Notes: generated by a model from the sequence alone, not told the origin. A stretch of DNA of 34,419 nucleotides from Candidatus Fischerbacteria bacterium RBG_13_37_8 (GCA_001780385.1 MFGW01000180.1:23935-58353), one strand, 5' to 3'; numbered from the stretch's first letter, positions 5,063 through 34,392 are shown. Translations and numbers: made by a program.

Positions 5063-5115
5063 GTCGCACCTGTTTTGTGCTTCCCTCAATGCACACAGAT
5101 TGTGGAATAATAAGC

Positions 5116-6009
5116 TTATTGAAAAAATAAACTATGCGGAATAAAGTATACCAATGCAGTAAGAAGTATACCAACAATTAGCCATGTACAAAATGTTCTT
5201 TTGCTTATTCTATTTTTAAAAGGTGAGATAGTTAATCTGTCTCCGCTCCTTAAAAATAAAAGAATTCCCCAGTACAAGACAACAAATAGACTTTTATTAT
5301 CCGTAATATCATCGCCGAAAGGAATGCCATTCCAACCAGTGCCAAATACTACATAAGCGATATAATATCCAATGATCAATGTCGAAAAAGTAAATGATAT
5401 CCAACTCCAGAGCACTATGCTGTATGTTTTTTTAAAGACAGAAGAAAGCATCCGGTTATCACTCCGAGTTTGCAAAAATACCAGCGCATAATATAATCCA
5501 TGCAAAAGCAGTATAGCAGCTCCAAGAACCATGACTACATGTATGACTACTAATAATTTCTTCGGTCGTCCTTCATACGTAACATAAGGCAAAGGTTTTT
5601 GAGGAGCCCATTCCGGTATCCTGACTATAGTAGTTTGAGAACCTTCTTTATAATTAATCTCAATATAATAAAAATACCGTTCCCCTTTTTGTAAACTTGG
5701 TATTTCTACTGCCCAATTACTTCCCTCGCCAATTTGATAAAAAGATGCCTGCTGATAATTCATTTCCATTTTCTTCTTAAAATGAGCAATAACAGTTTCG
5801 ATTGTAACATCCTTGAATGGTACTACTGAAAGCAACATTAAATGCGTTCTTCCTTCAAATTCATCATCATCCGGAACAAAAACATATCCAATAGGCTGCA
5901 CTGGATTCATCTTGCGATACATGTCCGGATTAATAATCGAATAGAAAATGAAGGCAAGCGCTAACGCCCCTAATAATGCCGTAATTATAAACGCTGCTTT
6001 ATTTTGCAC
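5116..6009 (-). CDS. Polytopic membrane protein of unknown function, start overlapping the ftsZ stop
   Basis: The GTG start overlaps the ftsZ TAG by 1 nt (TAGTG). Architecture: N-terminal TM (AAFIITALLGALALAFIFYSII), a roughly 130-aa extracytoplasmic domain, then about 4 TMs carrying His residues (IHVVMVLGAAILLLHGLYY, FIPHS) and the loop GWNGIPFGDDITDNKSLFVVLYW. Confidence 0.6.
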   Translation of the reverse strand: MQNKAAFIITALLGALALAFIFYSIINPDMYRKMNPVQPIGYVFVPDDDEFEGRTHLMLLSVVPFKDVTIETVIAHFKKKMEMNYQQASFYQIGEGSNWAVEIPSLQKGERYFYYIEINYKEGSQTTIVRIPEWAPQKPLPYVTYEGRPKKLLVVIHVVMVLGAAILLLHGLYYALVFLQTRSDNRMLSSVFKKTYSIVLWSWISFTFSTLIIGYYIAYVVFGTGWNGIPFGDDITDNKSLFVVLYWGILLFLRSGDRLTISPFKNRISKRTFCTWLIVGILLTALVYFIPHSLFFQ

Positions 6010-23481: not shown

Positions 23482-23528
23482 GTCCCCAGTCCCCAGTCCC
23501 CAATCCCCAGTCCCCAATCCCCAGTCCC
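23482..23528. repeat. Heptamer tandem array (CCCCAGT/CCCCAAT) about 6.5 units; G-quadruplex-capable on the minus strand
   Basis: CCCC runs start at 23484, 23491, 23498, 23505, 23512 and 23519 (plus CCC at 23526), an exact 7-nt period. The array abuts the stop codon (23528-23530) of the sulfatase-like gene. Confidence 0.9.
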
Positions 23529-25588
23529 TATCTAATGTATCCCAGTGACCTTAAAAAATCATCTATACTTGTATTATCACCGGATGTTGGTTCCAATCCT
23601 TCACTCTTACGAAAATTCGCATTCTGTTTCTGCCAGTTTGCTATTAGCTTTATCATCTCATTTCTTAATTCAGGATTATTGATCGGATTTTGCTCTTCAG
23701 GATCTTCAGCAAGATTAAAAAGCAAATTTCCGTCATCTGAAAGGATTAATTTATAATCCCCATTTATGACTGCTTTACGTTCCTTGTAATAAAGCGTATT
23801 CTCAGCAAATATTGCCCTCTTTGTAAAGTCTTCTGAAAATTGCAATGCTTTCATCAGATCAATTCCTTGATATGCATATGGTTGTTTGATAGCATTCCAT
23901 GAAAGAATAGTCGGTGCAATGTCAATGAGACTTGCAGATATTTTGCACCTGAAATTCTTATATTTTTGTTGAGGAAATTTAATAATCAACGGTATATGCA
24001 TCACTTCGTCGTAGAATGAATGACCATGTGCAATGTTATCATGTTCCCAGAATTCTTCTCCATGATCAGCAGTTATTATAATCATAGCATTTTCATATTT
24101 ATTTCTCTTTTTCAATTCTTCGATGATGCCACCTATCATTTTATCGGCATATTCCACTTCAGCGCGATAATAGTTCCTGAACATTTCCTTTTCAGCGCTG
24201 GAAATTGGTGTCAGGCCGCTTCTTGCTTCAATTATGCTGAAATATTGTAATTTTTTTCCTAGGAAAGCAACATCTTTTATTTCCGGCAATGTAAATGGAG
24301 TATGGGTATCAAGATAGTGCATCCAGACAAAAAAAGGTTCTCCGATAGTTTCGAGGTGTTCCATGAAGGCTTTATTGAGGTATTCAGCCTGGTAATTTGA
24401 TTGATACAATGTTTTAGAAGGCAACCAGTCTCTAATAATGCTCAGTTCATGAAATTCTTTCACATACCATGGAATATCTGGAACTGGGATGAAATGATCA
24501 AAAACGCTTTCTATATTTGATTTTTTGCCGAACATTCCCGGATAAACGATGAAATAAGTATGATAACCATTCTTTGAGAGTACTTTTGGCAAGACCTGCA
24601 ATTTAAGAAATGGCAGGATATTTTTACGTGCTGATAGCTGTCCCAGGGCTGAGGGATACATTGCGCTCATTATTGAGGATAGCGCTGGCAATGTCCAGCT
24701 ACTGGATGAATATGCTTTTTCAAATAAGACTCCATCTTGTGCTATAGCATCAATATGAGGAGTTGTTCCTTTCATTTTTCCATAAGCGCTCACGAAATCA
24801 TAGCGCAGTGCATCTACTGAAAGAATGAGAATATCGGGATAGGTCTCCGTAGATATTACTTCTTTATTTTGTGGAGGCTTCAGGGAATAAGACAGCGCAT
24901 ATAAAATAAACAGCAACGCGCAAAGATTAATAAAGGCGATAATAATTCTGCCTGACAATCTCCTTCCGATGAATTTTACCGCATATGCTATTGTCAAAGT
25001 AATAACAATCACTGCAACAGCTAATGCATTAAAGAGCAACGAATAGGGATTTCCCGACATCATTGCCAGGGAAAGAATAATTGCAGACAGGCAAAACAAT
25101 GGCAAAGCAGCAACAATAATCGAATCTGCAAATCTCGAATACAACCATTCACTATACCTGCTTAAACGCTTAATAATTACAAATAAACCGATAAAGGAAC
25201 CTACCAGCAAAATTGCAACAAAAAACAACAATAGTTTAGACAAGGAAAATGGATGCAGCAAAAAATATTTACTTTGCGGCTGAATACTGAACGACCATGA
25301 TACCGCATAAATAAATAGCAACACGGTAATGAAGGAAATACTGTTGTTTTCTTTTTGTCTGAGCCGGCTCAATGCCTCGAGGATAAAAAATAGGGCAAAG
25401 CATATGCCTGAAAGGATTACAACAGCCGCTATAATTTCCCGCATGCTTAGCAACAAGCTTTCTCTGAAAGTTTTCGCCACATAATCCTGAACTCGATTAT
25501 AGAGAATAGCTTCACATAATCCCAGCATAAAGGCGGTGAAAAAAACAATTTTTATCTTGTTTTTCATGTCTTCATTATATTCTTGCAT
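23528..25588 (-). CDS. Membrane-anchored alkaline-phosphatase-superfamily (sulfatase-like; LtaS/EptA/OpgB-type) transferase
   Basis: Polytopic N-terminal half, then a catalytic domain with ILSVDALRYDF, SSSWTLPALSS, HYLDTHTPF and ITADHGEEFWEH. No C/S-x-P-x-R formylglycine motif. The first 32 codons of the track ORF translate a repeat element (RADTCVCPY), so the start is moved to ATG 25588 (25567 is also possible). Confidence 0.8.
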   Translation of the reverse strand: MQEYNEDMKNKIKIVFFTAFMLGLCEAILYNRVQDYVAKTFRESLLLSMREIIAAVVILSGICFALFFILEALSRLRQKENNSISFITVLLFIYAVSWSFSIQPQSKYFLLHPFSLSKLLLFFVAILLVGSFIGLFVIIKRLSRYSEWLYSRFADSIIVAALPLFCLSAIILSLAMMSGNPYSLLFNALAVAVIVITLTIAYAVKFIGRRLSGRIIIAFINLCALLFILYALSYSLKPPQNKEVISTETYPDILILSVDALRYDFVSAYGKMKGTTPHIDAIAQDGVLFEKAYSSSSWTLPALSSIMSAMYPSALGQLSARKNILPFLKLQVLPKVLSKNGYHTYFIVYPGMFGKKSNIESVFDHFIPVPDIPWYVKEFHELSIIRDWLPSKTLYQSNYQAEYLNKAFMEHLETIGEPFFVWMHYLDTHTPFTLPEIKDVAFLGKKLQYFSIIEARSGLTPISSAEKEMFRNYYRAEVEYADKMIGGIIEELKKRNKYENAMIIITADHGEEFWEHDNIAHGHSFYDEVMHIPLIIKFPQQKYKNFRCKISASLIDIAPTILSWNAIKQPYAYQGIDLMKALQFSEDFTKRAIFAENTLYYKERKAVINGDYKLILSDDGNLLFNLAEDPEEQNPINNPELRNEMIKLIANWQKQNANFRKSEGLEPTSGDNTSIDDFLRSLGYIR

Positions 25589-25630
25589 CCGCTGCAATTC
25601 AACAAGAAAGGATTCTTTGCAAGTTCTGGT

Positions 25631-25656
25631 GTAGGGGCAGACACATGTGTCTGCCC
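25631..25656 (-). repeat. GC-rich palindromic intergenic repeat, copy C (inverted relative to copies A and B)
   Basis: GTAGGGGCAGACACATGTGTCTGCCC is the reverse complement of the copy A consensus with one loop change, which makes a perfect 22-nt palindrome. Confidence 0.85.
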
Positions 25657-25827
25657 TTGCGAGCAATCCCATTGGCCTTGTCATTGTGAGTTTGCCGGAG
25701 GCAAACGTAACAATTCAAAACGGATGATAAGAAACACTTCCGTTACGGATAATTACGCATTCTTGCCAGAATGCTCATAATGACAGTCCGTTGGGGATTG
25801 CTTCGCTTGCCTTAAGCAAGCTCGCAA
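25657..25827. repeat. Two inverted copies of a TCAYAATGACA...GATTGC...TCGCAA intergenic module flanking small hairpins
   Basis: 25657-25689 (ttgcgagcaatccc...tgtcattgtga) is the inverted form of 25775-25827 (tcataatgacagtcc...gattgcttcg...ctcgcaa). Internal hairpins are gtttgcc-gga-ggcaaac and gcttgccttaagcaagc. Related copies lie at 32704-32740 and 32823-32834. Confidence 0.7.
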
Positions 25828-25837
25828 AGACTGCAAT

Positions 25838-28171
25838 TCATTTTTTGCTATTAATCCCTATAGTGAACAGCATAACCAGCGCTAAACCTATTAAAAATAA
25901 GCAATTATCAGAAACTCCCAGCAACGGTATAAAAAAGCAGCCAGTCAGCAATGAACCAAAGGCAGCTCCCAGGTGATCCATGCTGTCTGTCCTGCCGGCA
26001 GATATGCCACTTTTTCCCCCATTGACAAGATATATCTTATTTGCTATTGGGAAATAAATCCCGGTTGCCGTTCCTGCAAGTATCATCAAAAATAAAAATA
26101 CATAATATACATACTGCCAATGTAATATGCTGATGGTAATGCTATACTTAAGCAGCATGACAATCAGTATCATAAAAAGAAATATTGCCATTGCTGAAAA
26201 AAAGATAGTTGTGTTTTGTCTTAAAATAATCTTGTTCCCCGCATAACTGCCAATTACAAGACCAGCCATAAACAACGCAACAAGCAAACTTATCTGCTGG
26301 TAAACAAATCCAAATATGCTTTGAAATTGAAACATAACGAGCAGATCTATTGAAATCCCAATATATCCCGCAACAAAAATTCCTGCTAATGCATCAAACC
26401 TCTTCTGCAGCATACTATTTCTCCCTGCTCTTTTAAAAAGAATCCTGAATAAAAAAATAATAATAAGCGCCACAACAAGATGTTTAAAACGAAGATTGTT
26501 AAAAAATGAAAGAAAACGGCTGAAGCGTGGTGCTGAGTATTTTTCCCACAATATCAAATTCAAAAAAAAGGCTGCTGGTTGTTTATCACTATTAACAGGT
26601 TCACTTTCCAGATTATTAAGAAATTGTTGTACTAACTCCACCCTGTAGGATTCCAGAAGATAATGAAAATGATACTTCGAAAAATATTCAGTTTCAATCC
26701 TGACATATTCATATCGGGCAGCAAGTGTATCCTGATCAAGGGTTATGTCCTGTTCATAATCAGAAGCTATGAACATAGCTTTTTCGCCTGGTGTCACAAG
26801 CACCTTTTTAAATGCTGTCTTTAATGTAGTATAGAGACTGCCCATATAGGCAGTAGTTTCTTCGCTGAAATAATTAATAGCAGAAGTTGAAAATGTAAAC
26901 ATAATTCCATGCTTATTCATTATTTTTTTCAACATTGCATAAAATTCTGCCGTGTAATACCTGTTTATATTTGCATTTGAAGGATCCGGTTGATTCACCA
27001 CGATTATATCGTATTGTTCTTTACAAGAAGCGACATAATGTTTCCCGTCCTTCTTAATTATTTTCACACGAGGATTTCTCAGTATAGATTTATAATTTTC
27101 AGGAAAGTATTGTTCTGTGAGTATAAAATAGCCAGGGTCTACCACTGCATAATCAATTGTACGTACCGGGTACCGGAGCATTTCCAATATGATATTTTCA
27201 GAACCCATTCCAAGAATTAAAATATTTTTTGCTCCAGGATTTTGTATCATGATCATATGAGCGTTTATTGCACCTCCATAGGGATCAGGGAAACTTCCGC
27301 TATATTTCCCGTTTGCATAAATCATATAGATTGTTTCTTTTTTACCAAGCGTTAAATTTTGGTATTTTGTATCATGAGAAGTGATAAATGTTATAGTTCC
27401 TGCCAGGCCTTTCCATCGTTGTTCGATGGTATAAGTATCAATTTTTTCATATGATTTATCAAAATAGCTGATCACCATTATGAATAAAACAATAAGAGTA
27501 GTTAAGCTTTTTATACCCGGGTGCGGGCGTTTTTGTTCAAGAGAAAACAAGTCCACAGCAGAAGCAATAGCTACAACAATGATAGCCCATAGGAACATAA
27601 TTCCAAAGTTGCTAAATTTGCTGATCAACAGATAAGCAAGCACAGCGCCTGCAAACATGCTTCCCAATGATTCATAAAAATAAATTTTTCCTATACCCAG
27701 GGCTTCTTCCAAATCACGCCGATATTTATATTCTTCTCGCAATCGATAAAGCCAGCTTTGTGTTATTATCGGAAATAGAAATCCAATCAATACACTAAAT
27801 GGTACTACTGTAATGATAACAATAACTAATGTTTTATCAAAAGTTACCTGCTGTCCCGGTCCAATAGAAATAACTATCGGACTTAATCTTATTCCGATAA
27901 TACTCACTATAGACAGCACTGCTAAGCAGGTTAATAAAAACGGATACCATTTTATATAAGTCCTTGATTTTTTTTGAATCCATGAACCTGAAATCCATGC
28001 ACCTGTCATTATTCCCAAAAACCAGGAAAAAAATATAATTCCGATAGTAAGCTCATTTCCATAAAAAATTACCAGGAGCTCACGTATCAAGATAGATTGC
28101 GTAGATATTGCAATTCCTCCAAAAGCAATCACTGATGATAAAAATAATGATTTTCTGATACTTCTATGCAT
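25838..28171 (-). CDS. Fused polytopic membrane / spermidine-synthase-like (aminopropyltransferase fold) protein
   Basis: About 7 TMs, then a class-I MTase/spermine-synthase-like core (ILILGMGSENIILEML, YAVVDPGYF, YDIIVVNQPDP, YYTAEFY), then about 6 more TMs. Start set to ATG 28171; the track uses TTG 28180. Confidence 0.8.
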   Translation of the reverse strand: MHRSIRKSLFLSSVIAFGGIAISTQSILIRELLVIFYGNELTIGIIFFSWFLGIMTGAWISGSWIQKKSRTYIKWYPFLLTCLAVLSIVSIIGIRLSPIVISIGPGQQVTFDKTLVIVIITVVPFSVLIGFLFPIITQSWLYRLREEYKYRRDLEEALGIGKIYFYESLGSMFAGAVLAYLLISKFSNFGIMFLWAIIVVAIASAVDLFSLEQKRPHPGIKSLTTLIVLFIMVISYFDKSYEKIDTYTIEQRWKGLAGTITFITSHDTKYQNLTLGKKETIYMIYANGKYSGSFPDPYGGAINAHMIMIQNPGAKNILILGMGSENIILEMLRYPVRTIDYAVVDPGYFILTEQYFPENYKSILRNPRVKIIKKDGKHYVASCKEQYDIIVVNQPDPSNANINRYYTAEFYAMLKKIMNKHGIMFTFSTSAINYFSEETTAYMGSLYTTLKTAFKKVLVTPGEKAMFIASDYEQDITLDQDTLAARYEYVRIETEYFSKYHFHYLLESYRVELVQQFLNNLESEPVNSDKQPAAFFLNLILWEKYSAPRFSRFLSFFNNLRFKHLVVALIIIFLFRILFKRAGRNSMLQKRFDALAGIFVAGYIGISIDLLVMFQFQSIFGFVYQQISLLVALFMAGLVIGSYAGNKIILRQNTTIFFSAMAIFLFMILIVMLLKYSITISILHWQYVYYVFLFLMILAGTATGIYFPIANKIYLVNGGKSGISAGRTDSMDHLGAAFGSLLTGCFFIPLLGVSDNCLFLIGLALVMLFTIGINSKK

Positions 28172-28231
28172 TATTATCAATTATTCATTGTATCAATTAT
28201 TTCGTCTTATGAAAATATGAGTTCTTCATAT

Positions 28232-28266: not shown

Positions 28267-29868
28267 ATGGAATCAAAAAACCATAGTATGACAACACGCA
28301 AAAAATTCCTTCTATTGACCGTGGCGAGCCTCACAGGCGCTATTTTGTTAGCATTATCGTTTCCAAAATGGGATTATTCTTTTCTGGCATGGATAGCTCT
28401 TATTCCCCTTATTTATGCAATGAAAGAAAATGCGCGAGCCAGTTTCTTTTATGGTTTTATTTATGGTGTAGTATGCAACTATATCACGTTTTATTGGGTT
28501 GTTCAGGTAATCGATGATTACTCTAACCTGCCATTGATATTAGCGCTCTTGCTCAATTTGCTTCTCTCATTTTATTTAGCACTTTATTGGGGAGTCTGGA
28601 CATGGTCTGGTTCATATTTTCTAAAGACATTGGGCAGTGGTGCTATCTGGATATTACCCTTTCTTTGGATCGTGCTTGAATATATCAGGAGTTATTTTTT
28701 AACTGGTTTTCCCTGGTGTTTGCTCGGCTATAGTCAATATCGATTTACTTCACTCTGTCAAATTGCTTCCATAGCAGGCGTTTATGGCATTAGTTTTACT
28801 ATCGTTGCTGCCAACTGTGTCTTATGCATATTATTTTTTAAAAGAATGCGACACCGCTATTGGTACGGAGCAATTATTGTTGTCGTATTGTATGTTGCGC
28901 TTGCAGTAACATGGGGGAATTTAAGAGTACGTAACTACCACGATAATAATGCCGTGGAAACCGTCGGTATTATACAGGGAAATATACCACAGGATCTCAA
29001 ATGGCTCGTATATTTATCAGATGCACATTTCAAAAAACATCTTATTCTGACGGGAAGTGCCATCTCCAACGGCGCAAAATTAATTATCTGGCCGGAAGCT
29101 GCCATCACTATCTTTTTTTTAGAAGATAAAGACAAACAAAATGAAATAATGCATATAGTAAAAGAAAGTAATGTGGGAATTCTTTTTGGCGGAGATTACC
29201 GGAATGAAAGCGATTCAAAGGTAAATTATTATAATTCAGCATATTTCATTAATCCCGATGATCACACCATTCAATTATACTCAAAAATGCATCTGGTACC
29301 ATTTGGAGAGTATGTACCCTTAAAAAAATTACTCTGGTTTGTCGATAAATTTGTAGAAGGTGTTTCAGATTTTTCAGCAGGAAGGGAATACATATTATTT
29401 AACTATAAAAATCATAGAATCAGCACTCAAATATGTTATGAAATTATATTCCCTGAGATTAGCAGGGCATTTGTAAAAAAAGGTTCAGAGTTGCTCACAA
29501 CTATTACCAACGATGCATGGTTTGGAGAAACATCTGCTGCTTATCAGCATTTTGCCATGGCGACAATTCGTACCATTGAAAACAAACGATACCTTGTCAG
29601 ATCAGCAAATACCGGCATCAGTGGCATTATAAATCCCGTTGGACGCATAATTCATGAAAGTGATGTATTCACTGAATTCGTCATTATAGATAAAATATCA
29701 TTTCTCAAGGAACATACTTTTTATACAAAGTATGGTGACTGGATATGTTATCTCTCAATTTGTATGATGCTTCTGTCAATGATTATCGCTGTTCGCATAC
29801 AAAAAAGAAAGGTAAAGGTTGAGGTTAAGGTTAACTTCTTCCTTAACTTCATCCTCTACCTTTCTTAA
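28267..29868 (+). CDS. lnt: Apolipoprotein N-acyltransferase Lnt
   Basis: Multi-TM N-terminus plus a CN-hydrolase domain with IWPEAA (Glu), KMHLVPFGEYVP (Lys), QICYEIIFPE (Cys) and ITNDAWFG. The last roughly 20 codons (RKVKVEVKVNFFLNFILYLS) run into a repeat hairpin. Confidence 0.9.
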   Translation: MESKNHSMTTRKKFLLLTVASLTGAILLALSFPKWDYSFLAWIALIPLIYAMKENARASFFYGFIYGVVCNYITFYWVVQVIDDYSNLPLILALLLNLLLSFYLALYWGVWTWSGSYFLKTLGSGAIWILPFLWIVLEYIRSYFLTGFPWCLLGYSQYRFTSLCQIASIAGVYGISFTIVAANCVLCILFFKRMRHRYWYGAIIVVVLYVALAVTWGNLRVRNYHDNNAVETVGIIQGNIPQDLKWLVYLSDAHFKKHLILTGSAISNGAKLIIWPEAAITIFFLEDKDKQNEIMHIVKESNVGILFGGDYRNESDSKVNYYNSAYFINPDDHTIQLYSKMHLVPFGEYVPLKKLLWFVDKFVEGVSDFSAGREYILFNYKNHRISTQICYEIIFPEISRAFVKKGSELLTTITNDAWFGETSAAYQHFAMATIRTIENKRYLVRSANTGISGIINPVGRIIHESDVFTEFVIIDKISFLKEHTFYTKYGDWICYLSICMMLLSMIIAVRIQKRKVKVEVKVNFFLNFILYLS

Positions 29869-29902
29869 CCTTAACCCTTACCTTTACCTTTCCCTGTTTT
29901 TT
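29807..29902 (+). terminator. Long imperfect hairpin built from GGTAAAGGTTAAGG-type low-complexity repeat, followed by a T-tract; likely lnt terminator
   Basis: 29807-29834 (gaaaggtaaaggttgaggttaaggttaa) pairs with 29865-29892 (ttaaccttaacccttacctttacctttc) at 25 of 28 positions. TTTTTT at 29897-29902. The lnt stop at 29866-68 lies inside the right arm. Confidence 0.6.
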
Positions 29903-29934
29903 CAGAGGAAACTGAATACTTACCGAACTGTTTC

Positions 29935-29963
29935 TTGACAAAACAGCGCTCCTGAATTACAAT
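29935..29963 (+). promoter_or_regulatory. Putative consensus promoter for the kinase-PqqD-rSAM operon (TTGACA-17 nt-TACAAT), -10 ends 6 nt before the ATG
   Basis: TTGACA at 29935-40, a 17-nt spacer, TACAAT at 29958-63, ATG at 29970. Confidence 0.5.
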
Positions 29964-29969
29964 TAGGCA

Positions 29970-30902
29970 ATGGAACTTACCGTAGCTGATGTAAAATATA
30001 ATTTTACTCCAAGAGAAGGAGATTTTTTACCTCGCATTGATTATTTCTGCACAAACTGTCACAAACCTTTCGGAAAAGAAACTATTGCCTTTAAGCAGGC
30101 TAATACAAAAATATGCATAGCAAACTTGACCAAAGAAGTTAAACAATACCTGTTCAACGTGCATGGTCCATTAATAGAAACAAATTCACAGCAATGCGAT
30201 AAGGTACTCGAAATTTATACGGCCGAGATAGATAGTTTTTTAAAATTTCCTACAGACAGTTATGAATACAGGAGATTCATACTTGATCAGGATCAGAATT
30301 ACATTTATTTTTGGACCTATCATCTTGCAGGATATATTGATAAAAGTACCTGGAAGGCTTGCGCATTTCTTTGCAATGAACAGACTCAAAAGAGCGCCTT
30401 TCTTATTAATGAACTTATTCTCGGATACTTTGCATGGTGGTCAATTTTTCATGGTGGTTTAATGATGCATGGTGCCAGCATTGTCAGGGACCAAAAAGCA
30501 TATATATTTTTTGGACCATCCGGAGCAGGAAAAACAACGATAAGTCGGCTTTCTGAACATTTAAAAATAATTAGCGATGAATATTCCATGATTTCTAAAA
30601 TTAACAGCAGTTATTTTGTATTTCGACCGCCACAGAAAAAAAGCATCACGAGACTCGATAACTGGCAGGAAGGATTTCCTCTCGCAGGAATTTACAGGTT
30701 AATACAATCGAATGAACGATTTATTGAAAAAATCCCTAAAGCACTTATGATATCTGAAATCCTCGCGAATCTGCTTTTTGCGCATGCCTATAATGTGTTG
30801 GGACTCCATGCTGTAGCAAATGCTGCTGCAATATTAGGTACGACGGAAAATGGTATGCTGCATTTCAAAAAAGATCAATTTTTTTGGGAGGTAATACCTT
30901 AA
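29970..30902 (+). CDS. HPr kinase-related (HprK-like) P-loop kinase with an uncharacterised N-terminal domain
   Basis: MMHGASIVRDQKAYIFFGPSGAGKTTISRL...KIISDEYSMI parallels the HprK C-terminal core (LHG..v...g.GvLi.G.SG.GKS......l.aDD). The roughly 160-aa N-terminal region has no motif I recognise apart from a single CxxC (FCTNCH). Confidence 0.75.
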   Translation: MELTVADVKYNFTPREGDFLPRIDYFCTNCHKPFGKETIAFKQANTKICIANLTKEVKQYLFNVHGPLIETNSQQCDKVLEIYTAEIDSFLKFPTDSYEYRRFILDQDQNYIYFWTYHLAGYIDKSTWKACAFLCNEQTQKSAFLINELILGYFAWWSIFHGGLMMHGASIVRDQKAYIFFGPSGAGKTTISRLSEHLKIISDEYSMISKINSSYFVFRPPQKKSITRLDNWQEGFPLAGIYRLIQSNERFIEKIPKALMISEILANLLFAHAYNVLGLHAVANAAAILGTTENGMLHFKKDQFFWEVIP

Positions 30903-30903
30903 T

Positions 30904-31188
30904 ATGATATTACTGGAAAAAAAGCCTGTTAAAAATGAAAAATATCCTTATCGGATAATTGATGGACAAGCCCTTATCATCGATCCCGCATCAAATGTAA
31001 TTAAACTCTTAAATGAAGTGGGAACAAAAGTGTGGGAATCTATTGATGGAGAAAATACTGGCAATGATATTCTTAAAATAATAATCGATGAATATGAAGT
31101 ATCTCCTGAAATTGCTAAAAATGATCTCGTCAAATTTCTTCAGGAGCTTCTCACCGGTGGTATTATTACAATAGATAACACTGCATAG
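30904..31188 (+). CDS. PqqD-family protein (RiPP precursor recognition element)
   Basis: 94 aa with the typical PqqD pattern KLLNEVGTKVWESIDGENTGNDILKIIIDEYEVSPEIAKNDLVKFLQELLTGGII. Its start lies 1 nt after the kinase stop (TAAtATG). Confidence 0.85.
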   Translation: MILLEKKPVKNEKYPYRIIDGQALIIDPASNVIKLLNEVGTKVWESIDGENTGNDILKIIIDEYEVSPEIAKNDLVKFLQELLTGGIITIDNTA

Positions 31189-31230
31189 TGCATATATGCT
31201 TTAATTAATAGTAAAAAATTAAAGGGAACA

Positions 31231-32304
31231 ATGGGAGAACTACCAAAACAAGCACAACCATTAAGCGCTATGAAAGCATTTCTCTTGAAAGCATTTCATC
31301 AGTGTGTACCATTAAGTCTTCAACTTGAACTTACTCAATCATGCAATTTAAAATGTCAGTTTTGTTACAGTGAGAATACGATGATTTTCCTGGAAACAGG
31401 AGCTGTATGCAAGGTAATAGATGATGCATGCACATTAGGAAGTTATATGCTTGCTCTTACTGGTGGAGAGCCATTACTGCATCCAGATTTTTTTACTATT
31501 GCCGAACATGGGAAAAAAAGAGGCTATTTGCTTATTATTCAAACCAACGGAATCATCATCGATGAGAATATTGCAGCTAAAATAGCCGCGCTTGCTCCCG
31601 CCGTCGTTGATATCAGCATACACGGAGCTAAAGCAGAAACTCATGAAGCTCTTACTCTGGTAAAAGGCTCATTCGATAAAGCAATAAATGCCATAAAACT
31701 ACTTAAGGGATTGGAATGCCCTGTTCGTTTTAAAATTCCAGTAACCAAAATCAACCAGGAGGAATTAGAACAAATAAATCAAATGGCAGAATCCATGAAT
31801 TGTTATGCGGTTTTTGATCCTTTTATAAGTCCCACGCTCAAGGGAAATACAAAACCATTAGAATTAAAGCCCGATTTTAGCAAATTATCACTCTATATTG
31901 ATTATTCAATTATTGATAATGAGGGTGACATACTTCAACTTACACCTCGCAGTCTTGATGAAGTACTGTGCGGTTTGGGAAGGATTCTTATTGCAATTAC
32001 AGCAGCAGGATTCATTCAGCCATGCATGAGAGTACCAATTACTCTCGGTTCAATTTATAAAGACAGTATCATTGAAGTATGGCACACAAATGAAAAATTA
32101 AAAGAATTAAGATACTTGAAAAGATTCACTATAGAAAAATGCCGCAATTGTACCTTGTTGGATTTTTGTTTTGTTTGTCCAGGACTTCAATTGCTTAAAC
32201 ATAATACATTTAAAATCCCCTACGAAGAGGCATGTGAAAATGCCCAATTACGCCACAAAAAATACCAGGAAAGCCTAAAAGAAAAGAATGAGAAAAAATA
32301 TTAA
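31231..32304 (+). CDS. Radical SAM enzyme with a C-terminal SPASM domain (peptide maturase type)
   Basis: CxxxCxxC motif (SCNLKCQFCY), GGEPLL, and a SPASM cysteine pattern: CGLGRILIAITAAGFIQPC ... CRNCTLLDFCFVC ... EEAC. Confidence 0.9.
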   Translation: MGELPKQAQPLSAMKAFLLKAFHQCVPLSLQLELTQSCNLKCQFCYSENTMIFLETGAVCKVIDDACTLGSYMLALTGGEPLLHPDFFTIAEHGKKRGYLLIIQTNGIIIDENIAAKIAALAPAVVDISIHGAKAETHEALTLVKGSFDKAINAIKLLKGLECPVRFKIPVTKINQEELEQINQMAESMNCYAVFDPFISPTLKGNTKPLELKPDFSKLSLYIDYSIIDNEGDILQLTPRSLDEVLCGLGRILIAITAAGFIQPCMRVPITLGSIYKDSIIEVWHTNEKLKELRYLKRFTIEKCRNCTLLDFCFVCPGLQLLKHNTFKIPYEEACENAQLRHKKYQESLKEKNEKKY

Positions 32305-32333
32305 AAAATTTTTAAAAAAAAGCCAAAAAACAC

Positions 32334-32362
32334 TTGACAAGGTTTTAAATATATATTACAAT
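32334..32362 (+). promoter_or_regulatory. Near-consensus sigma70 promoter (TTGACA-17 nt-TACAAT) dedicated to the small ORF
   Basis: TTGACA at 32334-39, a 17-nt spacer, TACAAT at 32357-62. AAGGAGG follows at 32382-88 and the ATG at 32394. Confidence 0.6.
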
Positions 32363-32393
32363 GCTATTTCGCTAAGTATTTAAGGAGGTTAAG

Positions 32394-32534
32394 ATGAGCG
32401 AAAAGAAATATTATGAAGAACCAAGAATAATCCACGAGCAAAAAGTTGAATTAACCGGTGGTGGCTGCGCACTTGAACCTGGTAATACCGTTTGCGAAGG
32501 CCAAGGTTATGTAATAACTACTACAGCGTCGTAA
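32394..32534 (+). CDS. Unannotated 46-aa ORF: candidate RiPP precursor peptide MSEKKYYEEPRIIHEQKVELTGGGCALEPGNTVCEGQGYVITTTAS
   Basis: Translated by hand and below the ORF-track size cutoff. It has an AAGGAGG SD 5 nt upstream, its own consensus promoter and a downstream terminator, and lies directly after the PqqD and rSAM/SPASM genes. It shows a charged leader-like N-terminus and a Gly/Cys/Thr-rich C-terminus. Confidence 0.6.
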   Translation: MSEKKYYEEPRIIHEQKVELTGGGCALEPGNTVCEGQGYVITTTAS

Positions 32535-32654
32535 AAGCAAAAAAAAGTGTAATCACGAGAAAATATTCCTAGTAGTAAAAGTACGTTTGCAGGATTAAAG
32601 AGACTGAAATACTGCATAAAGTGAAAGTGTGGTAATTGCAATTATCACTTTAAG

Positions 32655-32705
32655 AAAGGGATTAGGATTGTGATGATCTTAATCCCTTTCGTTTTTTTAT
32701 TTTTT
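32655..32705 (+). terminator. Rho-independent terminator after the small ORF
   Basis: 10-bp stem (aaagggatta 32655-64 pairing with taatcccttt 32680-89), a 15-nt loop, then cgTTTTTTTaTTTTTT. Confidence 0.7.
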
Positions 32706-32740
32706 GCGAGTTCTTCGAAGCAGATGGACTGTCATTATGA
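32704..32740 (-). repeat. Third copy (inverted) of the TCAYAATGACA...TCGCAA intergenic module
   Basis: ggactgtcattatga (32726-40) is the exact reverse complement of tcataatgacagtcc (25775-89). ttgcgag at 32704-10 matches the other end of the module. A partial fourth copy, gctcataatgac, lies at 32823-34. Confidence 0.7.
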
Positions 32741-32803
32741 TTCCCGCGTCAGCGGGACGTGATAATCCCTAATGGATTATCATAGCACATACGTTAAGGA
32801 TTA

Positions 32804-32831
32804 TTGATTTTGTCTTCGGCAAGCTCATAAT
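32804..32831 (+). promoter_or_regulatory. Putative promoter for the CsgG-like gene (TTGATT-16 nt-CATAAT)
   Basis: TTGATT at 32804-09 and CATAAT at 32826-31. The -10 lies inside the gctcataatgac repeat fragment. AGGAGG at 32849-54, ATG at 32860. Confidence 0.35.
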
Positions 32832-32859
32832 GACGATAATTTACATTCAGGAGGATAAA

Positions 32860-33747
32860 ATGAAAAAAACAATTATGCTATTTGTGGTAATGATTTTCCT
32901 TACCTCAACTTTTATGGTTAATGCAGCCGGAAAAGGAAAAGTCCGGATTGCCGTAATGGATTTTGAGAATAACAGTACATGGTCCTGGTGGGGAGATAAT
33001 TTAGGCAAAGCTGCGGCTGATGAATTAGTAACCCAATTAGTAAAATCAGGACAATTTTCTGTTATTGAAAGAGATAAGCTTCAGGCTGTTTTAGATGAGC
33101 AGGCATTAGGAGCCTCGGGAGCCGTTCAAGGTTCAACTGCAGCTAAAATTGGGAAAATACTTGGAATTCATTTAATCCTGACAGGTTCCATTACCAAATT
33201 CAGCATCAAAACAATGAGTGGTGGTTTTGGCGGTATTGGCGCTTCCTACTCAAAAGCTGAAAGTACCGTTGACGTACGATTGATAGATACCACAACGGGT
33301 GAGATTTTACTTGCAGATGAAGCATCAGGAGACAAGAAAATGGGCGGGGCGACTGTGAAAGGGGCAAGTTTTGAGCAACACTTTGATGCAGGAGTTGCGC
33401 AGGAAGCATTGCGACCCGCTATTCAAAAAATTGTTACTAAAATTGTAGCAAATTCAGAACAATATTCGCAATTAGCTCCAGTAGCAGCAGGGCTGGCTAA
33501 AATTGTTGACGTGAAATCTCCTCAAAAAGTGTATATAGATCTTGGAGAAACCGAAGGAGCAAAAGTTGGCGATCAATTTACCGTCGAGAGAGTAACTGAT
33601 TCAATTAAGGATGAAGACGGCAATGTGCTTGATGAAGTAAAAAGTCAGGTCGGCGTCATAGAAGTAACCCAGGTATTATCTAAATCATCTATTTGCAAAG
33701 TAGTGAGTGGCAGTGCACAAAAAGGAGATTCTGCTAAGAAAAAATAG
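32860..33747 (+). CDS. CsgG-family (curli secretion channel-like) periplasmic/outer-membrane protein with an extra C-terminal domain
   Basis: KVRIAVMDFENNS...LGKAAADELVTQLVKSGQFSVIERDKLQAVLDEQALG...AKIGKILGIHLILTGSITKF fits the CsgG-family core pattern. Start moved to ATG 32860 (AGGAGG SD; signal peptide MKKTIMLFVVMIFLTSTFMVNA-AG). No lipobox Cys is present. Confidence 0.7.
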   Translation: MKKTIMLFVVMIFLTSTFMVNAAGKGKVRIAVMDFENNSTWSWWGDNLGKAAADELVTQLVKSGQFSVIERDKLQAVLDEQALGASGAVQGSTAAKIGKILGIHLILTGSITKFSIKTMSGGFGGIGASYSKAESTVDVRLIDTTTGEILLADEASGDKKMGGATVKGASFEQHFDAGVAQEALRPAIQKIVTKIVANSEQYSQLAPVAAGLAKIVDVKSPQKVYIDLGETEGAKVGDQFTVERVTDSIKDEDGNVLDEVKSQVGVIEVTQVLSKSSICKVVSGSAQKGDSAKKK

Positions 33748-33846: not shown

Positions 33847-33870
33847 TATAACATTAAATGATAGGTGTTT

Positions 33871-34392
33871 ATGCACATCGATAAAAGAAAAGTGCTTGTT
33901 TTAAATAACAGTTATGAGCCCATTAATATTTGCTCATGGAAAAAAGCTATTATAATGATTATCAAAGGAAACGCTACCAGCCTTGAAGACACTGATATAA
34001 TAATAAATTCCCCTTCTACAAAATTATTACTTCCTTCAGTTTTAAGGCTTGCTCATTACGTTCCCGTACCTAAAATCAGAAATAAATTAAATAAATCATA
34101 TGTTTTGCTTCGAGATAGTTTTATTTGTCAATACTGTGGGAAAAAATTGAAAGAATCAGAAATAACACTTGATCATATTATACCTCGTTCACGAGGAGGG
34201 CGAAATAACTGGCAAAATCTTGCAACAGCTTGTCCGGAATGCAATTCTAAAAAAGGAGACAAATTACCAGAGGAAGCAGGTTTCAGATTAAAAAAAGATC
34301 CTCGTCGATACCAGCCTTTTTCCATGCTTTATCAGCTTCAATTCTGTGTCTATCTTGATGAACGATGGAAAAAATATCTTTTTCTTGATTAA
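33871..34392 (+). CDS. Small stand-alone HNH endonuclease (McrA/COG1403-like)
   Basis: HNH core LDHIIPRSRGGRNNWQNLATACPECNSKKGDK with flanking Cys pairs (CQYCG, CPECN) and the conserved N-terminus VLVLNNSYEPINICSWKKAI. ATG 33871 is preferred over GTG 33865. Confidence 0.85.
   Translation: MHIDKRKVLVLNNSYEPINICSWKKAIIMIIKGNATSLEDTDIIINSPSTKLLLPSVLRLAHYVPVPKIRNKLNKSYVLLRDSFICQYCGKKLKESEITLDHIIPRSRGGRNNWQNLATACPECNSKKGDKLPEEAGFRLKKDPRRYQPFSMLYQLQFCVYLDERWKKYLFLD

What the first reader, a model, noticed from the sequence alone, without database searches (positions are those of the whole stretch)
29935..32705. Compact HprK-like kinase / PqqD / radical SAM-SPASM locus with a separately promoted candidate precursor: a putative uncharacterised RiPP system
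Seen in the sequence: three co-directional genes, with the kinase stop and PqqD start 1 nt apart (TAAtATG). They encode an HprK-core P-loop protein (FFGPSGAGKTT), a classical PqqD fold, and an rSAM enzyme (CNLKCQFC) with a full SPASM cysteine set. A 46-codon ORF follows with its own TTGACA-17-TACAAT promoter, an AAGGAGG SD and a terminator. The window contains no leader peptidase, no ABC/C39 exporter, no lasso cyclase or protease, and no pqqB/pqqC. Established knowledge: PqqD-like proteins are RiPP recognition elements. rSAM/SPASM enzymes install thioether (sacti/ranthipeptide) or C-C (PqqE-type) crosslinks on bound peptides. HPr-kinase homologues phosphorylate the C-terminal Ser of lasso precursors (paeninodin-type clusters). 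From memory, TIGRFAMs describes HprK-related kinase A/B families that neighbour PqqD and rSAM/SPASM genes (the GeoRSP context) without a defined substrate. Inference: this locus makes a crosslinked, possibly phosphorylated peptide of a class that has not been chemically characterised, and the small ORF would be the missing substrate.
Basis: partly seen in the sequence, partly recalled or inferred. Interest (0 to 1): 0.88.

Follow-up and report, generated by a model that had tools for sequence, protein, structure and literature searches.

The report
Kinase–PqqD–radical SAM peptide cassette with precursor
This is a real four-gene cassette (kinase-like enzyme, peptide-binding chaperone, radical SAM enzyme and a 46-residue substrate peptide); the peptide belongs to a large, unnamed family found across many uncultured bacterial phyla, so it likely marks an uncharacterised class of modified peptides that can be tested directly.

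Summary
The window comes from Candidatus Fischerbacteria RBG_13_37_8. It carries a ScmC-family HprK/PEPCK-fold P-loop protein, a PqqD-type RiPP recognition element (RRE), a radical SAM (rSAM)/SPASM enzyme and a separately promoted 46-codon ORF.

The small ORF is a real gene, with pN/pS of 0.07-0.27 against relatives. It belongs to a large unannotated precursor family: 188 clusters at 90% identity and 1020 representatives at 50% identity. The family signature is Y-x-x-P, then 15-16 residues to a first Cys, a second Cys, and a C-terminal Ser.

Homologous peptides lie next to ScmC-PqqD-rSAM triads in Chloroflexota, Acidobacteriota, Methylomirabilota, Nitrospirota and other phyla. The Cys pair tracks rSAM presence (35/0/1/6, Fisher p = 1.3e-6). 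The RRE profile is closest to lasso B1 proteins and LppB, which bind YxxP leaders.

Most likely mechanism, inferred: PqqD binds the leader, the rSAM crosslinks the two Cys, and the kinase phosphorylates the terminal Ser.

All NCBIfam equivalog cut-offs (SynChlorMet, GeoRSP, HprK-related A) are missed. No paper in the library describes this combination. [quoted passage not shown] The Fischerbacteria version is the minimal form. I rate it a new variant of a known kind.

The parts
29935..29963 (+). Sigma-70-like promoter P1 (TTGACA-17-TACAAT) upstream of the kinase-PqqD-rSAM operon
   Evidence: 11/12 match, tied for best in the 29700-32900 region. Function is inferred from position only.
29970..30902 (+). 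ScmC-family P-loop kinase-like protein (310 aa) with an HprK/PEPCK fold. It carries HG(167-168), GPSGAGKTT(182-190) and SDE(202-204).
   Evidence: 100% identical to P0001, with precomputed Pfam PF27840 (named ScmC); sub-threshold hits to HprK_rel_A and ScmC. AF2 pLDDT 89.9. Foldseek hits ATP-PEPCK (E 5e-7) and HprK/P (E 2e-4). H167, G182, P183, G187, K188, T190, S202 and D203 are invariant in 21 homologues.
30904..31188 (+). PqqD-family RiPP recognition element (94 aa), lasso-B1/LppB-like
   Evidence: PF05402 at 53.8 bits; the profile of 16 orthologues matches TbiB1 (E 5e-15), the PqqD-family protein 9x8z_B (1e-11), the lasso PqqD chaperone 9x90_B and TfuB1 (1e-9) better than genuine PqqD (8e-7). 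Its start is 1 nt after the kinase stop.
31231..32304 (+). Radical SAM/SPASM peptide maturase (357 aa), with no fused RRE
   Evidence: PF04055 and PF13186. CX3CX2C is conserved in 98% of 47 homologues and seven SPASM Cys are present; the closest solved relative is the sactionine synthase SkfB (E 6.6e-14); full-length sub-threshold matches to GeoRSP_rSAM and to the mycofactocin maturase.
32334..32362 (+). Sigma-70-like promoter P2 (TTGACA-17-TACAAT) dedicated to the precursor gene
   Evidence: 11/12 match; the TTGACA box and the -10 region are conserved in L001, L003 and L005.
32382..32388 (+). Shine-Dalgarno AAGGAGG, 5 nt before the ATG
   Evidence: One search shows the sequence. GGAGGT is invariant in four relatives.
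32394..32534 (+). Precursor peptide, 46 aa: MSEKKYYEEPRIIHEQKVELTGGGCALEPGNTVCEGQGYVITTTAS. Leader is Y7-x-x-P10; the core has C25 and C34; the C-terminal residue is S46.
   Evidence: 5 close homologues; always directly after the rSAM gene; pN/pS 0.07-0.27; member of a family of at least 1020 representatives with Y/P/C/C/terminal-S conserved.
32654..32700 (+). Intrinsic terminator (17-bp stem, 3-nt loop, T-run)
   Evidence: Conserved in L001 and L003.

Best explanation
The locus is a compact RiPP-type maturation cassette. The 46-residue peptide is the substrate.

Proposed steps:
1. The stand-alone PqqD-type RRE binds the leader through its Y-x-x-P-x-[IV] motif and presents the peptide to the two enzymes.
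2. The rSAM/SPASM enzyme acts on the two invariant Cys (C25, C34). The most likely reaction is intramolecular thioether (sactionine or ranthionine type) crosslinking.
3. The ScmC-family HprK/PEPCK-fold kinase uses ATP to phosphorylate the invariant C-terminal Ser, as HprK-like kinases do in paeninodin and pseudomycoidin.
4. The precursor gene has its own strong promoter and terminator, which would give substrate excess over enzymes.
5. No protease or exporter is linked in Fischerbacteria, so leader removal and export would rely on unlinked functions, or the product stays cell-associated.

Shown: the gene identities and folds, coding selection on the small ORF, its cross-phylum linkage to the triad, the invariant positions, the co-variation of Cys with rSAM, and the B1/LppB-like RRE.

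Inferred: leader binding, the type of crosslink, the phosphorylation site, the order of steps and the fate of the product.
For: Linkage and coding:
- Five Fischerbacteria-type relatives keep the order ScmC-PqqD-rSAM-peptide, with 48-58% ScmC identity and 65-80% peptide identity.
- Synonymous sites are near saturation (pS 0.41-0.94) while pN/pS is 0.07-0.27.
- In 63 GTDB loci recovered with the ScmC profile, about 40 carry the triad. Profile searches find homologous peptides beside it in about 35 non-redundant loci.

Peptide family:
- It has 188 clusters at 90% identity. Of the 120 listed, none has a Pfam hit or a source name other than 'hypothetical', 'unnamed' or 'uncharacterized' protein.
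- There are 1020 representatives at E <= 1e-3.
- Of the 120 listed clusters, 117 end in Ser, 113 have exactly two Cys, and the distance from Pro to the first Cys is 15 or 16 residues in 118.
- Of the top 147 representatives, 138 end in Ser and 131 combine two Cys with a terminal Ser.

Link between the rSAM and the Cys pair: the counts are 35 (rSAM with Cys), 0 (rSAM without Cys), 1 (no rSAM with Cys; a truncated contig) and 6 (no rSAM without Cys), Fisher p = 1.3e-6.

RRE: the profile is closest to the leader-binding lasso B1 proteins TbiB1 and TfuB1 and to 9x8z_B and 9x90_B. The LPP leader consensus YxxPxVLxHQxIxFETxxS (PMC13381572) aligns with YEEPRIIHEQKVELT.

Kinase: the AF2 model is confident (pLDDT 89.9) and matches PEPCK and HprK/P. 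HG, the P-loop and SD[DE] are invariant. HprK-like kinases phosphorylate the C-terminal Ser of paeninodin and pseudomycoidin (PMC6993621) and Ser3 of LPP.

rSAM: it has a full CX3CX2C motif plus a seven-Cys SPASM domain. Its closest solved relative is the thioether-forming SkfB.
Against: - No chemistry was measured.
- No acceptor residue for a thioether is conserved across the family.
- HMM similarity of the rSAM is equally good to MftC (C-terminal oxidative decarboxylation and C-C crosslinking) and to heme or NirJ-type enzymes.
- Homology of the ScmC-type protein to the lasso and LPP kinases was established only at the superfamily and fold level. TM-scores are modest (0.45 to PEPCK, 0.23 to HprK/P).
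- In LPP the phospho-site is Ser3 of the core, not the C-terminus.
- The closest non-Fischerbacteria ScmC relatives (Polarisedimenticolia loci L007, L012-L014, L017) have the triad but no detectable peptide.
- Some ScmC homologues occur with neither PqqD nor rSAM (L010, L011).
- The window shows no protease or exporter, and the rest of the MAG could not be inspected.
Confidence: 0.55

Rival explanations
1. The substrate and RRE are the same, but the chemistry centres on the C-terminus and yields a cofactor-like product. The rSAM/SPASM would act like MftC or PqqE, performing oxidative decarboxylation or C-C crosslinking near the invariant terminal Ser. The product would be a small intracellular molecule or cofactor, not a secreted crosslinked peptide.
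For: - Among full-length NCBIfam matches of the rSAM, the mycofactocin maturase is one of the best (97.9 bits for the window protein; 141 bits for the L018 orthologue).
- The C-terminal residue is invariant, as in MftA.
- The Fischerbacteria locus sits in a housekeeping, vertically conserved neighbourhood with no protease or exporter.
Against: - The Cys pair, not only the terminus, is invariant, and it co-varies with rSAM presence.
- Cores are otherwise hypervariable, and some loci carry 2-3 tandem precursor copies (L015, L021, L022, L024). This is typical of RiPP natural products.
- Most other phyla add a large secreted C25 peptidase and a signal-peptidase-I-like enzyme.
- No mftD/E/F or pqqB/C-like genes are present.
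Confidence: 0.15
2. The kinase activates Ser for elimination and does not leave a stable phosphate. Phosphorylation of the terminal Ser would be followed by beta-elimination to dehydroalanine. The dehydroalanine would then be captured by a Cys thiol (lanthionine-like) or hydrolysed to a C-terminal amide, and the rSAM would perform a separate modification.
For: - Kinase-then-elimination logic is established for class III/IV lanthipeptides (general knowledge; review PMC8341899 listed).
- The last Cys lies only 5-7 residues from the terminal Ser in most family members.
Against: - No lyase or HopA1-like domain lies in the window or in the conserved neighbourhoods.
- The characterised HprK-like RiPP kinases leave stable, even poly-, phosphate on Ser.
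Confidence: 0.1
3. The rSAM/SPASM is an anaerobic sulfatase-maturating-type enzyme for the nearby sulfatase-family protein (23528-25684). The small ORF would be incidental.
For: Sulfatase-family genes lie within a few kb of ScmC cassettes in the window, in L001 and in five Polarisedimenticolia/Acidobacteriota loci (L007, L013, L014, L016, L017), and those five loci lack the peptide.
Against: - None of the six sulfatase-family proteins examined has a C/S-x-P/A-x-R formylglycine motif at the nucleophile position.
- The window protein is a polytopic membrane protein with an AP-superfamily domain.
- anSMEs need neither PqqD nor a kinase.
- The peptide is under purifying selection and is linked to the triad in phyla where no sulfatase is adjacent.
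Confidence: 0.03
4. The small ORF is a chance ORF, or the cassette is a decaying remnant.
For: The exact window peptide was not among the called proteins of the public collection: one search returned only relatives at 74-80% identity. Gene callers often miss such ORFs.
Against: - pN/pS is 0.07-0.27.
- The promoter, SD and terminator are conserved.
- The family exceeds 1000 representatives and has invariant positions.
- Catalytic motifs are intact in all three enzymes.
Confidence: 0.01

Closest known systems
Linear polyphosphorylated peptides (LPP) of Bacillota (Popov et al., Nat Commun 2026, PMC13381572)
   Same: - Both have a discrete PqqD-type RRE, an HprK-like kinase and a precursor with a Y-x-x-P leader.
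- The LPP consensus YxxPxVLxHQxIxFETxxS aligns position by position with YEEPRIIHEQKVELT.
- The RRE profile matches PDB entry 9x8z_B, deposited as 'PqqD family protein' and probably LppB, at E 1e-11.
[quoted passage not shown]
   Different: - LPP clusters have no radical SAM enzyme and no conserved Cys pair.
- LPP is phosphorylated on core Ser3, not on a C-terminal Ser.
[quoted passage not shown]
- LPP is reported as restricted to Bacillota.
- The window lacks SpI, the NTP-transferase and the exporter.
Paeninodin/pseudomycoidin-type phosphorylated lasso peptides
   Same: - The RRE is B1-like and the leader is YxxPx[LIV].
- An HprK-like kinase acts on a C-terminal Ser of the precursor (PMC6993621), matching the invariant terminal Ser here.
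   Different: The window has no lasso cyclase and no B2 protease. No Asp/Glu lies 7-9 residues after a Thr(-2) cleavage site. An rSAM/SPASM enzyme is present instead.
SynChlorMet cassette (NCBIfam TIGR04248-04251; Pfam PF27840 ScmC), with GeoRSP and HprK-related kinase A/B systems
   Same: The enzyme types occur together: an HprK-related P-loop protein, a PqqD homologue and rSAM/SPASM. The window kinase carries the precomputed Pfam ScmC domain. Its best NCBIfam PqqD hit is ScmD.
   Different: - Every equivalog cut-off is missed: ScmC 20.5 vs 125, ScmD 36 vs 100, ScmE/F 106 vs 400, GeoRSP PqqD 28 vs 100, GeoRSP rSAM 108 vs 400, HprK_rel_A 20.7 vs 200.
- There is one rSAM where the SynChlorMet cassette has two.
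- No NCBIfam model matches the precursor family found here. From memory, no precursor has been defined for these curated systems.
Sactipeptides and ranthipeptides (SkfB, AlbA, PapB, CteB type)
   Same: An rSAM with a full SPASM domain acts with an RRE on a short Cys-containing precursor. The closest solved relative is SkfB.
   Different: - The RRE is a separate protein, not an N-terminal domain of the rSAM.
- There are only two Cys and no conserved acceptor motif.
- A kinase and an invariant terminal Ser are added.
- NCBIfam scores are far below the cut-offs of the sacti and ranthi models.

Membership tests
SynChlorMet cassette (NCBIfam equivalogs ScmC/ScmD/ScmE/ScmF) | ScmC equivalog score >= 125 bits | tested here: not met
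   20.5 bits, covering only residues 160-254.
SynChlorMet cassette (NCBIfam equivalogs ScmC/ScmD/ScmE/ScmF) | ScmD (PqqD-like) score >= 100 bits | tested here: not met
   36.1 bits. This is the best NCBIfam hit for the PqqD protein, but it is sub-threshold.
SynChlorMet cassette (NCBIfam equivalogs ScmC/ScmD/ScmE/ScmF) | Two paralogous rSAM/SPASM proteins, ScmE and ScmF, each >= 400 bits | tested here: not met
   there is a single rSAM gene, scoring 106 and 105.8 bits.
Pfam PF27840 (ScmC domain family) | Match to the Pfam ScmC model | tested here: met
   the precomputed PF27840 hit is recorded for P0001 (identical to the window protein) and for 28 of its 29 homologues. The local Pfam copy lacks this model, so no score could be recomputed.
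GeoRSP system | geo_PqqD_fam >= 100 bits, GeoRSP_rSAM >= 400 bits, plus a separate SPASM-domain protein | tested here: not met
   27.9 and 108.4 bits. No extra SPASM protein is present in the window.
HprK-related kinase A / HPr(Ser) kinase-phosphorylase | HprK_rel_A >= 200 bits, or hpr-ser equivalog >= 240 bits | tested here: not met
   20.7 bits for HprK_rel_A and no hpr-ser hit.
HprK/PEPCK P-loop kinase superfamily | The fold, the Walker A motif G-x-S-G-x-G-K-[ST], an upstream HG, and a downstream acidic D[DE] motif | tested here: met
   the AF2 model has pLDDT 89.9, and Foldseek matches PEPCK at E 5e-7 and HprK/P at E 2e-4. H167, G182-T190 and S202-D203 are invariant in 21 homologues. Kinase activity itself cannot be tested here.
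Lasso peptide BGC (paeninodin type) | Asn-synthetase-like lasso cyclase (C) and transglutaminase-like leader protease (B2) | tested here: not met
   no such domain occurs in any window ORF of at least 100 aa. None occurs in relatives L075 or L077.
Lasso peptide BGC (paeninodin type) | B1-type RRE and a YxxPx[LIV] leader motif | tested here: met
   the RRE profile's best match is TbiB1 (E 5e-15). Y7 is nearly invariant, P10 is invariant, and I12 follows.
LPP family (PMC13381572) | HprK-like kinase, discrete RRE and a YxxP leader | tested here: met
   at the level of fold and motif.
LPP family (PMC13381572) | [quoted passage not shown] | tested here: not met
   These are absent from the window. 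An SpI-like gene is present in about 28 related loci from other phyla.
Sactipeptide / ranthipeptide | rSAM with CX3CX2C and a SPASM auxiliary-cluster Cys set, plus a Cys-containing precursor | tested here: met
   for the enzyme. for the two invariant Cys that co-vary with the rSAM.
Sactipeptide / ranthipeptide | A Cys S to C-alpha, C-beta or C-gamma thioether crosslink in the product | not testable with these tools
   This needs MS/MS and NMR of the product.
PQQ / mycofactocin pathways | pqqB/C or mftD/E/F genes, and a precursor with E-x3-Y or a C-terminal Val-Tyr | tested here: not met
   Searches show no such genes. The peptide ends in ...TTTAS. PqqD and PqqE equivalog scores are below cut-off.
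Anaerobic sulfatase-maturating enzyme system | A partner sulfatase with a C/S-x-P/A-x-R formylglycine motif | tested here: not met
   the motif is absent at the nucleophile position in the window protein and in five homologues.

The most novel reading that the evidence does not exclude
The 46-residue ORF is a founding example of an undescribed RiPP class. The class is defined by the precursor signature Y-x-x-P-x15/16-C-x6-18-C-x4-11-Ser(COOH). Each peptide would be doubly modified: by a radical SAM/SPASM enzyme at the Cys pair and by an HprK/PEPCK-fold kinase at the terminal Ser. The class has more than 1000 distinct precursors across Chloroflexota, Acidobacteriota, Methylomirabilota, Nitrospirota, Proteobacteria, Planctomycetota and Fischerbacteria. 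[quoted passage not shown] This hints that the modified peptide is processed at, or attached to, the cell envelope and is not simply released as an antibiotic.
Probability: 0.35. Interest if true: 0.8.

Novelty: new variant of a known kind. Interest (0 to 1): 0.64.

Why it matters
From memory, HprK-related kinase / PqqD / rSAM-SPASM cassettes have sat in curated family databases for over a decade without a defined substrate (SynChlorMet, GeoRSP, HprK-related A/B, and now Pfam ScmC).

This locus, together with the relatives gathered here, supplies a precise and testable substrate family. The family has four invariant positions that map naturally onto the three proteins:
- Y-x-x-P to the RRE.
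- The Cys pair to the rSAM.
- The terminal Ser to the kinase.

It also links three systems as users of one shared leader, RRE and kinase module: rSAM chemistry, phosphorylated lasso peptides and the newly described LPP family. That makes the module's evolution traceable.

The Fischerbacteria version has only four genes, each with clear expression signals, so it is an unusually simple construct for heterologous reconstitution.

The peptides are unannotated in public databases, so current genome-mining pipelines probably miss the family.

Tried and rejected
1. A plain tblastn of the window peptide against the first loci found nothing outside close relatives. Iterative profile searches were needed.
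2. No peptide was found in the Polarisedimenticolia triad loci, even with unfiltered hmmsearch at E <= 10 and manual reading of ORFs. This remains unexplained.
3. The anSME-for-sulfatase idea was rejected because the FGly motif is absent.
4. The lasso reading was rejected. There is no cyclase or B2, and with a Thr(-2) cleavage the first acidic residue would be at core position 6.
5. A double-glycine/C39 leader was rejected. TGGG is specific to Fischerbacteria, other phyla have AG, AV or similar, and no C39 transporter is present.
6. Four of the six literature searches found nothing: SynChlorMet/GeoRSP/HprK-related, HPr kinase + PqqD + radical SAM, and HprK + radical SAM + RRE. A fifth gave only a general review. 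Haft's 2011 paper is not held.
7. The exact window kinase is not indexed for contig look-up, so the rest of the 98-kb contig could not be inspected. Relatives L075 and L077 were used instead.
8. Rfam found no RNA family in the window.
9. The second structure job was not used.
10. The metagenome-contig scan was not used, because the two protein searches already gave enough family members.

Full report
**Observation.**
- A 310-aa ORF (29970-30902) carries YIFFGPSGAGKTT. Its stop is one base from the start of a 94-aa ORF (30904-31188).
- A 357-aa ORF (31231-32304) has CNLKCQFC and seven C-terminal Cys.
- After 89 nt comes a 46-codon ORF (32394-32534).
- In a consensus scan of 29700-32900, the two best promoter-like sites are both TTGACA-17-TACAAT (11/12). 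They lie directly before the first gene (29935-29963) and before the small ORF (32334-32362). A 17-bp hairpin with a T-run follows the small ORF at 32654-32700.
- The number of promoter-like hits in the region is not above the shuffled expectation. The argument therefore rests on placement and on conservation: the -35 box, the GGAGGT Shine-Dalgarno and the terminator are retained in relatives L001, L003 and L005.

**Source and setting.** The kinase-like protein is 100% identical to a hypothetical protein of Candidatus Fischerbacteria bacterium RBG_13_37_8.
- The rest of the window is chromosomal housekeeping: Mla genes, ftsZ/A/Q, murB/C/G, ftsW, murD, mraY, murF/E, a PBP, ftsL-like, mraW and mraZ. 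Then come a sulfatase-family membrane protein, a polytopic spermidine-synthase-like protein and lnt. Downstream of the cassette lie a CsgG-like lipoprotein and an HNH protein.
- The window holds no lasso cyclase, B2 protease, C39/ABC peptide exporter, pqqB/C, C25 peptidase or S26 peptidase.
- The same order (lnt, then the four genes, then CsgG, HNH and IspE) holds in relatives whose ScmC is 48-58% identical (L005, L075, L077). The cassette is therefore a long-maintained chromosomal feature of this lineage.

**The three proteins.**
- *PqqD.* It matches PF05402 at 53.8 bits. A profile of 16 orthologues matches the leader-binding lasso B1 proteins TbiB1 (E 5e-15) and TfuB1. It also matches two 2026 PDB entries, 9x8z_B (a PqqD-family protein, E 1e-11) and 9x90_B (a lasso PqqD chaperone, E 1e-9). 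All these matches are better than the match to genuine PqqD (E 8e-7).
- *rSAM.* It matches PF04055 and PF13186. Its CX3CX2C motif is conserved in 98% of 47 homologues, and it has all seven SPASM Cys. It has no N-terminal RRE, which fits the need for a separate PqqD. Its closest solved relative is the sactionine synthase SkfB (E 6.6e-14). Full-length sub-threshold NCBIfam matches include GeoRSP_rSAM and the mycofactocin maturase.
- *Kinase-like protein.* Precomputed Pfam annotation places it in PF27840, 'ScmC'. The AF2 model from a 21-sequence alignment is confident (pLDDT 89.9, pTM 0.88). It matches ATP-PEPCK over its whole length (E 5e-7, TM 0.45) and HprK/P over the P-loop domain (E 2e-4). 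H167-G, G182-P-S-G-A-G-K-T-T190 and S202-D203 are invariant across 21 homologues down to 19% identity. As far as I recall, this is the HG, Walker A and acidic-pair arrangement of HprK/P.
- Every NCBIfam equivalog cut-off is missed by a wide margin (ScmC, ScmD, ScmE/F, GeoRSP PqqD and rSAM, HprK_rel_A). The locus resembles these curated systems but is not a member of any.

**The small ORF is a gene.**
- Five public peptide clusters share 74-80% identity with it. They always lie directly after the rSAM gene.
- Across five orthologues, synonymous sites are close to saturation (pS 0.41-0.94), while pN/pS is 0.07-0.27.

**The ORF belongs to a large family linked to the triad.**
- A scan of GTDB representative genomes with the ScmC profile returned 63 loci. 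They come from Acidobacteriota, Chloroflexota, Methylomirabilota, Nitrospirota, Proteobacteria, Planctomycetota and others.
- About 40 of these loci carry ScmC, PqqD and rSAM side by side, usually in that order and often overlapping.
- Iterative profile searches over the small ORFs of these loci recovered homologues of the window peptide in about 35 non-redundant triad loci. Most sit right after the rSAM gene, some just before ScmC, and some loci have two or three tandem copies.
- In a 30-sequence alignment, P10, C25 and the C-terminal Ser are invariant and Y7 is nearly so.
- Searching 5.8 billion proteins with that alignment gave 188 clusters. Of the 120 listed, none has a Pfam hit or a source name other than 'hypothetical', 'unnamed' or 'uncharacterized' protein.
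- Of those 120 listed clusters, 117 end in Ser and 113 have exactly two Cys. The first Cys lies 15 or 16 residues after the Pro in 118.
- An exhaustive HMMER search of 1.84 billion 50%-identity representatives gave 1020 hits at E <= 1e-3. Of the top 147, 138 end in Ser, and 131 combine two Cys with a terminal Ser.
- No NCBIfam model matches any member.

**What the conserved positions imply.**
- *Leader.* Y-x-x-P-x-[IV] is the motif that lasso B1 proteins and LppB bind. The LPP leader consensus YxxPxVLxHQxIxFETxxS (PMC13381572) aligns in register with YEEPRIIHEQKVELT.
- *Cys pair.* It co-varies with the rSAM. There are 35 loci with an rSAM and peptides having at least two Cys, and none with an rSAM and Cys-free peptides. 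Six loci lack an rSAM and have Cys-free peptides (...LETRAGSPL...). One apparent exception sits on a contig that ends right after ScmC. Fisher p = 1.3e-6, without phylogenetic correction.
- *Terminal Ser.* It parallels paeninodin and pseudomycoidin, whose HprK-like kinases phosphorylate the precursor's C-terminal Ser (PMC6993621). LppK polyphosphorylates a core Ser.

**Best explanation.** I conclude the following, and these steps are inferred and not shown.
- PqqD docks the leader.
- The rSAM/SPASM enzyme crosslinks via the two Cys, most likely forming thioethers.
- The ScmC-type kinase phosphorylates Ser46.
- The precursor's own strong promoter and terminator fit substrate over-expression relative to the enzymes.

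**Caveats.**
- No acceptor residue is conserved family-wide.
- The rSAM resembles MftC about as much as it resembles sactisynthases.
- The kinase is tied to lasso and LPP kinases only at fold level.
- The nearest non-Fischerbacteria ScmC relatives (Polarisedimenticolia) have the triad plus a C25 peptidase and a sulfatase-family gene but no detectable peptide.
- Some ScmC homologues stand with a cupin-like gene only.

**Wider architecture.**
- Outside Fischerbacteria, the cassette usually continues with a 1000-1450-aa Peptidase_C25 protein that resembles the T9SS sortase PorU (270 bits, below the 420 cut-off). It also continues with an archaeal-type (SipW-like) signal peptidase I (47 bits against a 51.85 cut-off).
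- The latter is the same peptidase type as the LPP leader peptidase LppS.
- The six Cys-free, rSAM-free loci keep ScmC, PqqD and the peptide, most with the C25 peptidase and SpI.
- So the leader, RRE and kinase, usually with SpI and C25, form a shared module, and the rSAM plus the Cys pair is one elaboration of it. The Fischerbacteria locus is the reverse simplification: the rSAM is kept, and C25 and SpI are not in view.

**Rivals.**
- An MftC/PqqE-like, C-terminus-centred cofactor pathway (0.15).
- Kinase-driven elimination instead of stable phosphorylation (0.10).
- An anSME for the neighbouring sulfatase-family protein. I reject this because none of six such proteins has a C/S-x-P/A-x-R motif.
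- A chance ORF. This is refuted.

**Novelty.**
- Four of six full-text searches for the relevant term combinations found nothing. A fifth returned one general review. The sixth led to the 2026 LPP paper, which never mentions radical SAM enzymes, thioethers, Chloroflexota or Acidobacteriota and describes LPP and paeninodins as restricted to Bacillota.
- The enzyme trio has been recognised bioinformatically (SynChlorMet, GeoRSP, Pfam ScmC). The precursor family and its signature appear to be undescribed.
- I rate it a new variant of a known kind: an RRE-dependent RiPP that combines rSAM/SPASM and HprK-like kinase tailoring. Interest is about 0.64. It is not conceptually shocking, but it makes a long-standing 'orphan cassette' directly testable with a four-gene construct.

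Noticed in passing
L018:8409-11477 and L018:11484-12071; also L015, L019, L021, L022, L024-L029, L033, L035-L037, L042, L044, L045, L047 and others: In most non-Fischerbacteria loci, the peptide genes are followed by a 1000-1450-aa PorU-like Peptidase_C25 protein. About 28 loci also carry an archaeal-type (SipW-like) signal peptidase I. A small fn3-like lipoprotein homologous to part of the C25 protein often precedes ScmC. The role of a sortase-like C25 enzyme in a RiPP-like cassette is unexplained.
   Followed up: partly
L007, L012, L013, L014, L017 (Polarisedimenticolia / Acidobacteriota): These loci have ScmC-PqqD-rSAM (most also with the C25 peptidase) but no detectable precursor ORF. Their rSAM proteins end in a conserved extra tail (...GG[VI]LSKC[AG]M) that is absent from the window enzyme. 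The substrate in this clade is unknown.
   Followed up: partly
window 23528-25684 (-); L001:3360-5372; L007:2003-3928; L014, L016, L017: A sulfatase-family (alkaline-phosphatase superfamily) protein recurs within a few kb of ScmC cassettes in Fischerbacteria and Polarisedimenticolia. All copies lack the formylglycine C/S-x-P-x-R motif and have S/T-x-x-P-S at that position. The window copy has an N-terminal polytopic membrane domain. A functional link to a phosphorylated peptide is possible but untested.
   Followed up: partly
L026:6601-6756, L029:6572-6760, L036:5036-5281, L037:6640-6831, L047:7813-7944, L039:4692-4787: A Cys-free sister group of precursors (...KPYxKPxIIxExxLETRAGSPL...) occurs in loci with ScmC and PqqD (most also with the C25 peptidase and SpI) but no rSAM. 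These look like non-Bacillota counterparts of the LPP family.
   Followed up: partly
window 29805-29892: A long imperfect inverted repeat (28-nt arms, 89% complementary, built from GGTTAA/GGTAAA-like units) overlaps the 3' end of lnt and ends about 40 nt before promoter P1. It is not conserved in L075, where lnt and ScmC are only 43 nt apart. It could be a terminator or an operator-like element.
   Followed up: partly
window 32830-33747 and 33865-34392: A CsgG-family lipoprotein with a FlgT_C-like C-terminal domain, followed by an HNH protein, lies immediately downstream of the cassette in all Fischerbacteria-type relatives (L001, L005, L075, L077). It is unclear whether the CsgG-like pore has anything to do with the peptide. 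It is transcriptionally separated from it by the terminator.
   Followed up: no
L010:1370-3223, L011:6001-7884: Some ScmC-family proteins are paired with a 301-aa cupin-like protein and have neither PqqD nor rSAM. The ScmC family is therefore broader than the RiPP context.
   Followed up: no
window 25838-28180 (-); window 3935-5089 and 5116-6009 (-): There is a 780-aa polytopic membrane protein with a central spermidine-synthase domain. Two ORFs between the Mla genes and ftsZ have no significant Pfam match.
   Followed up: no
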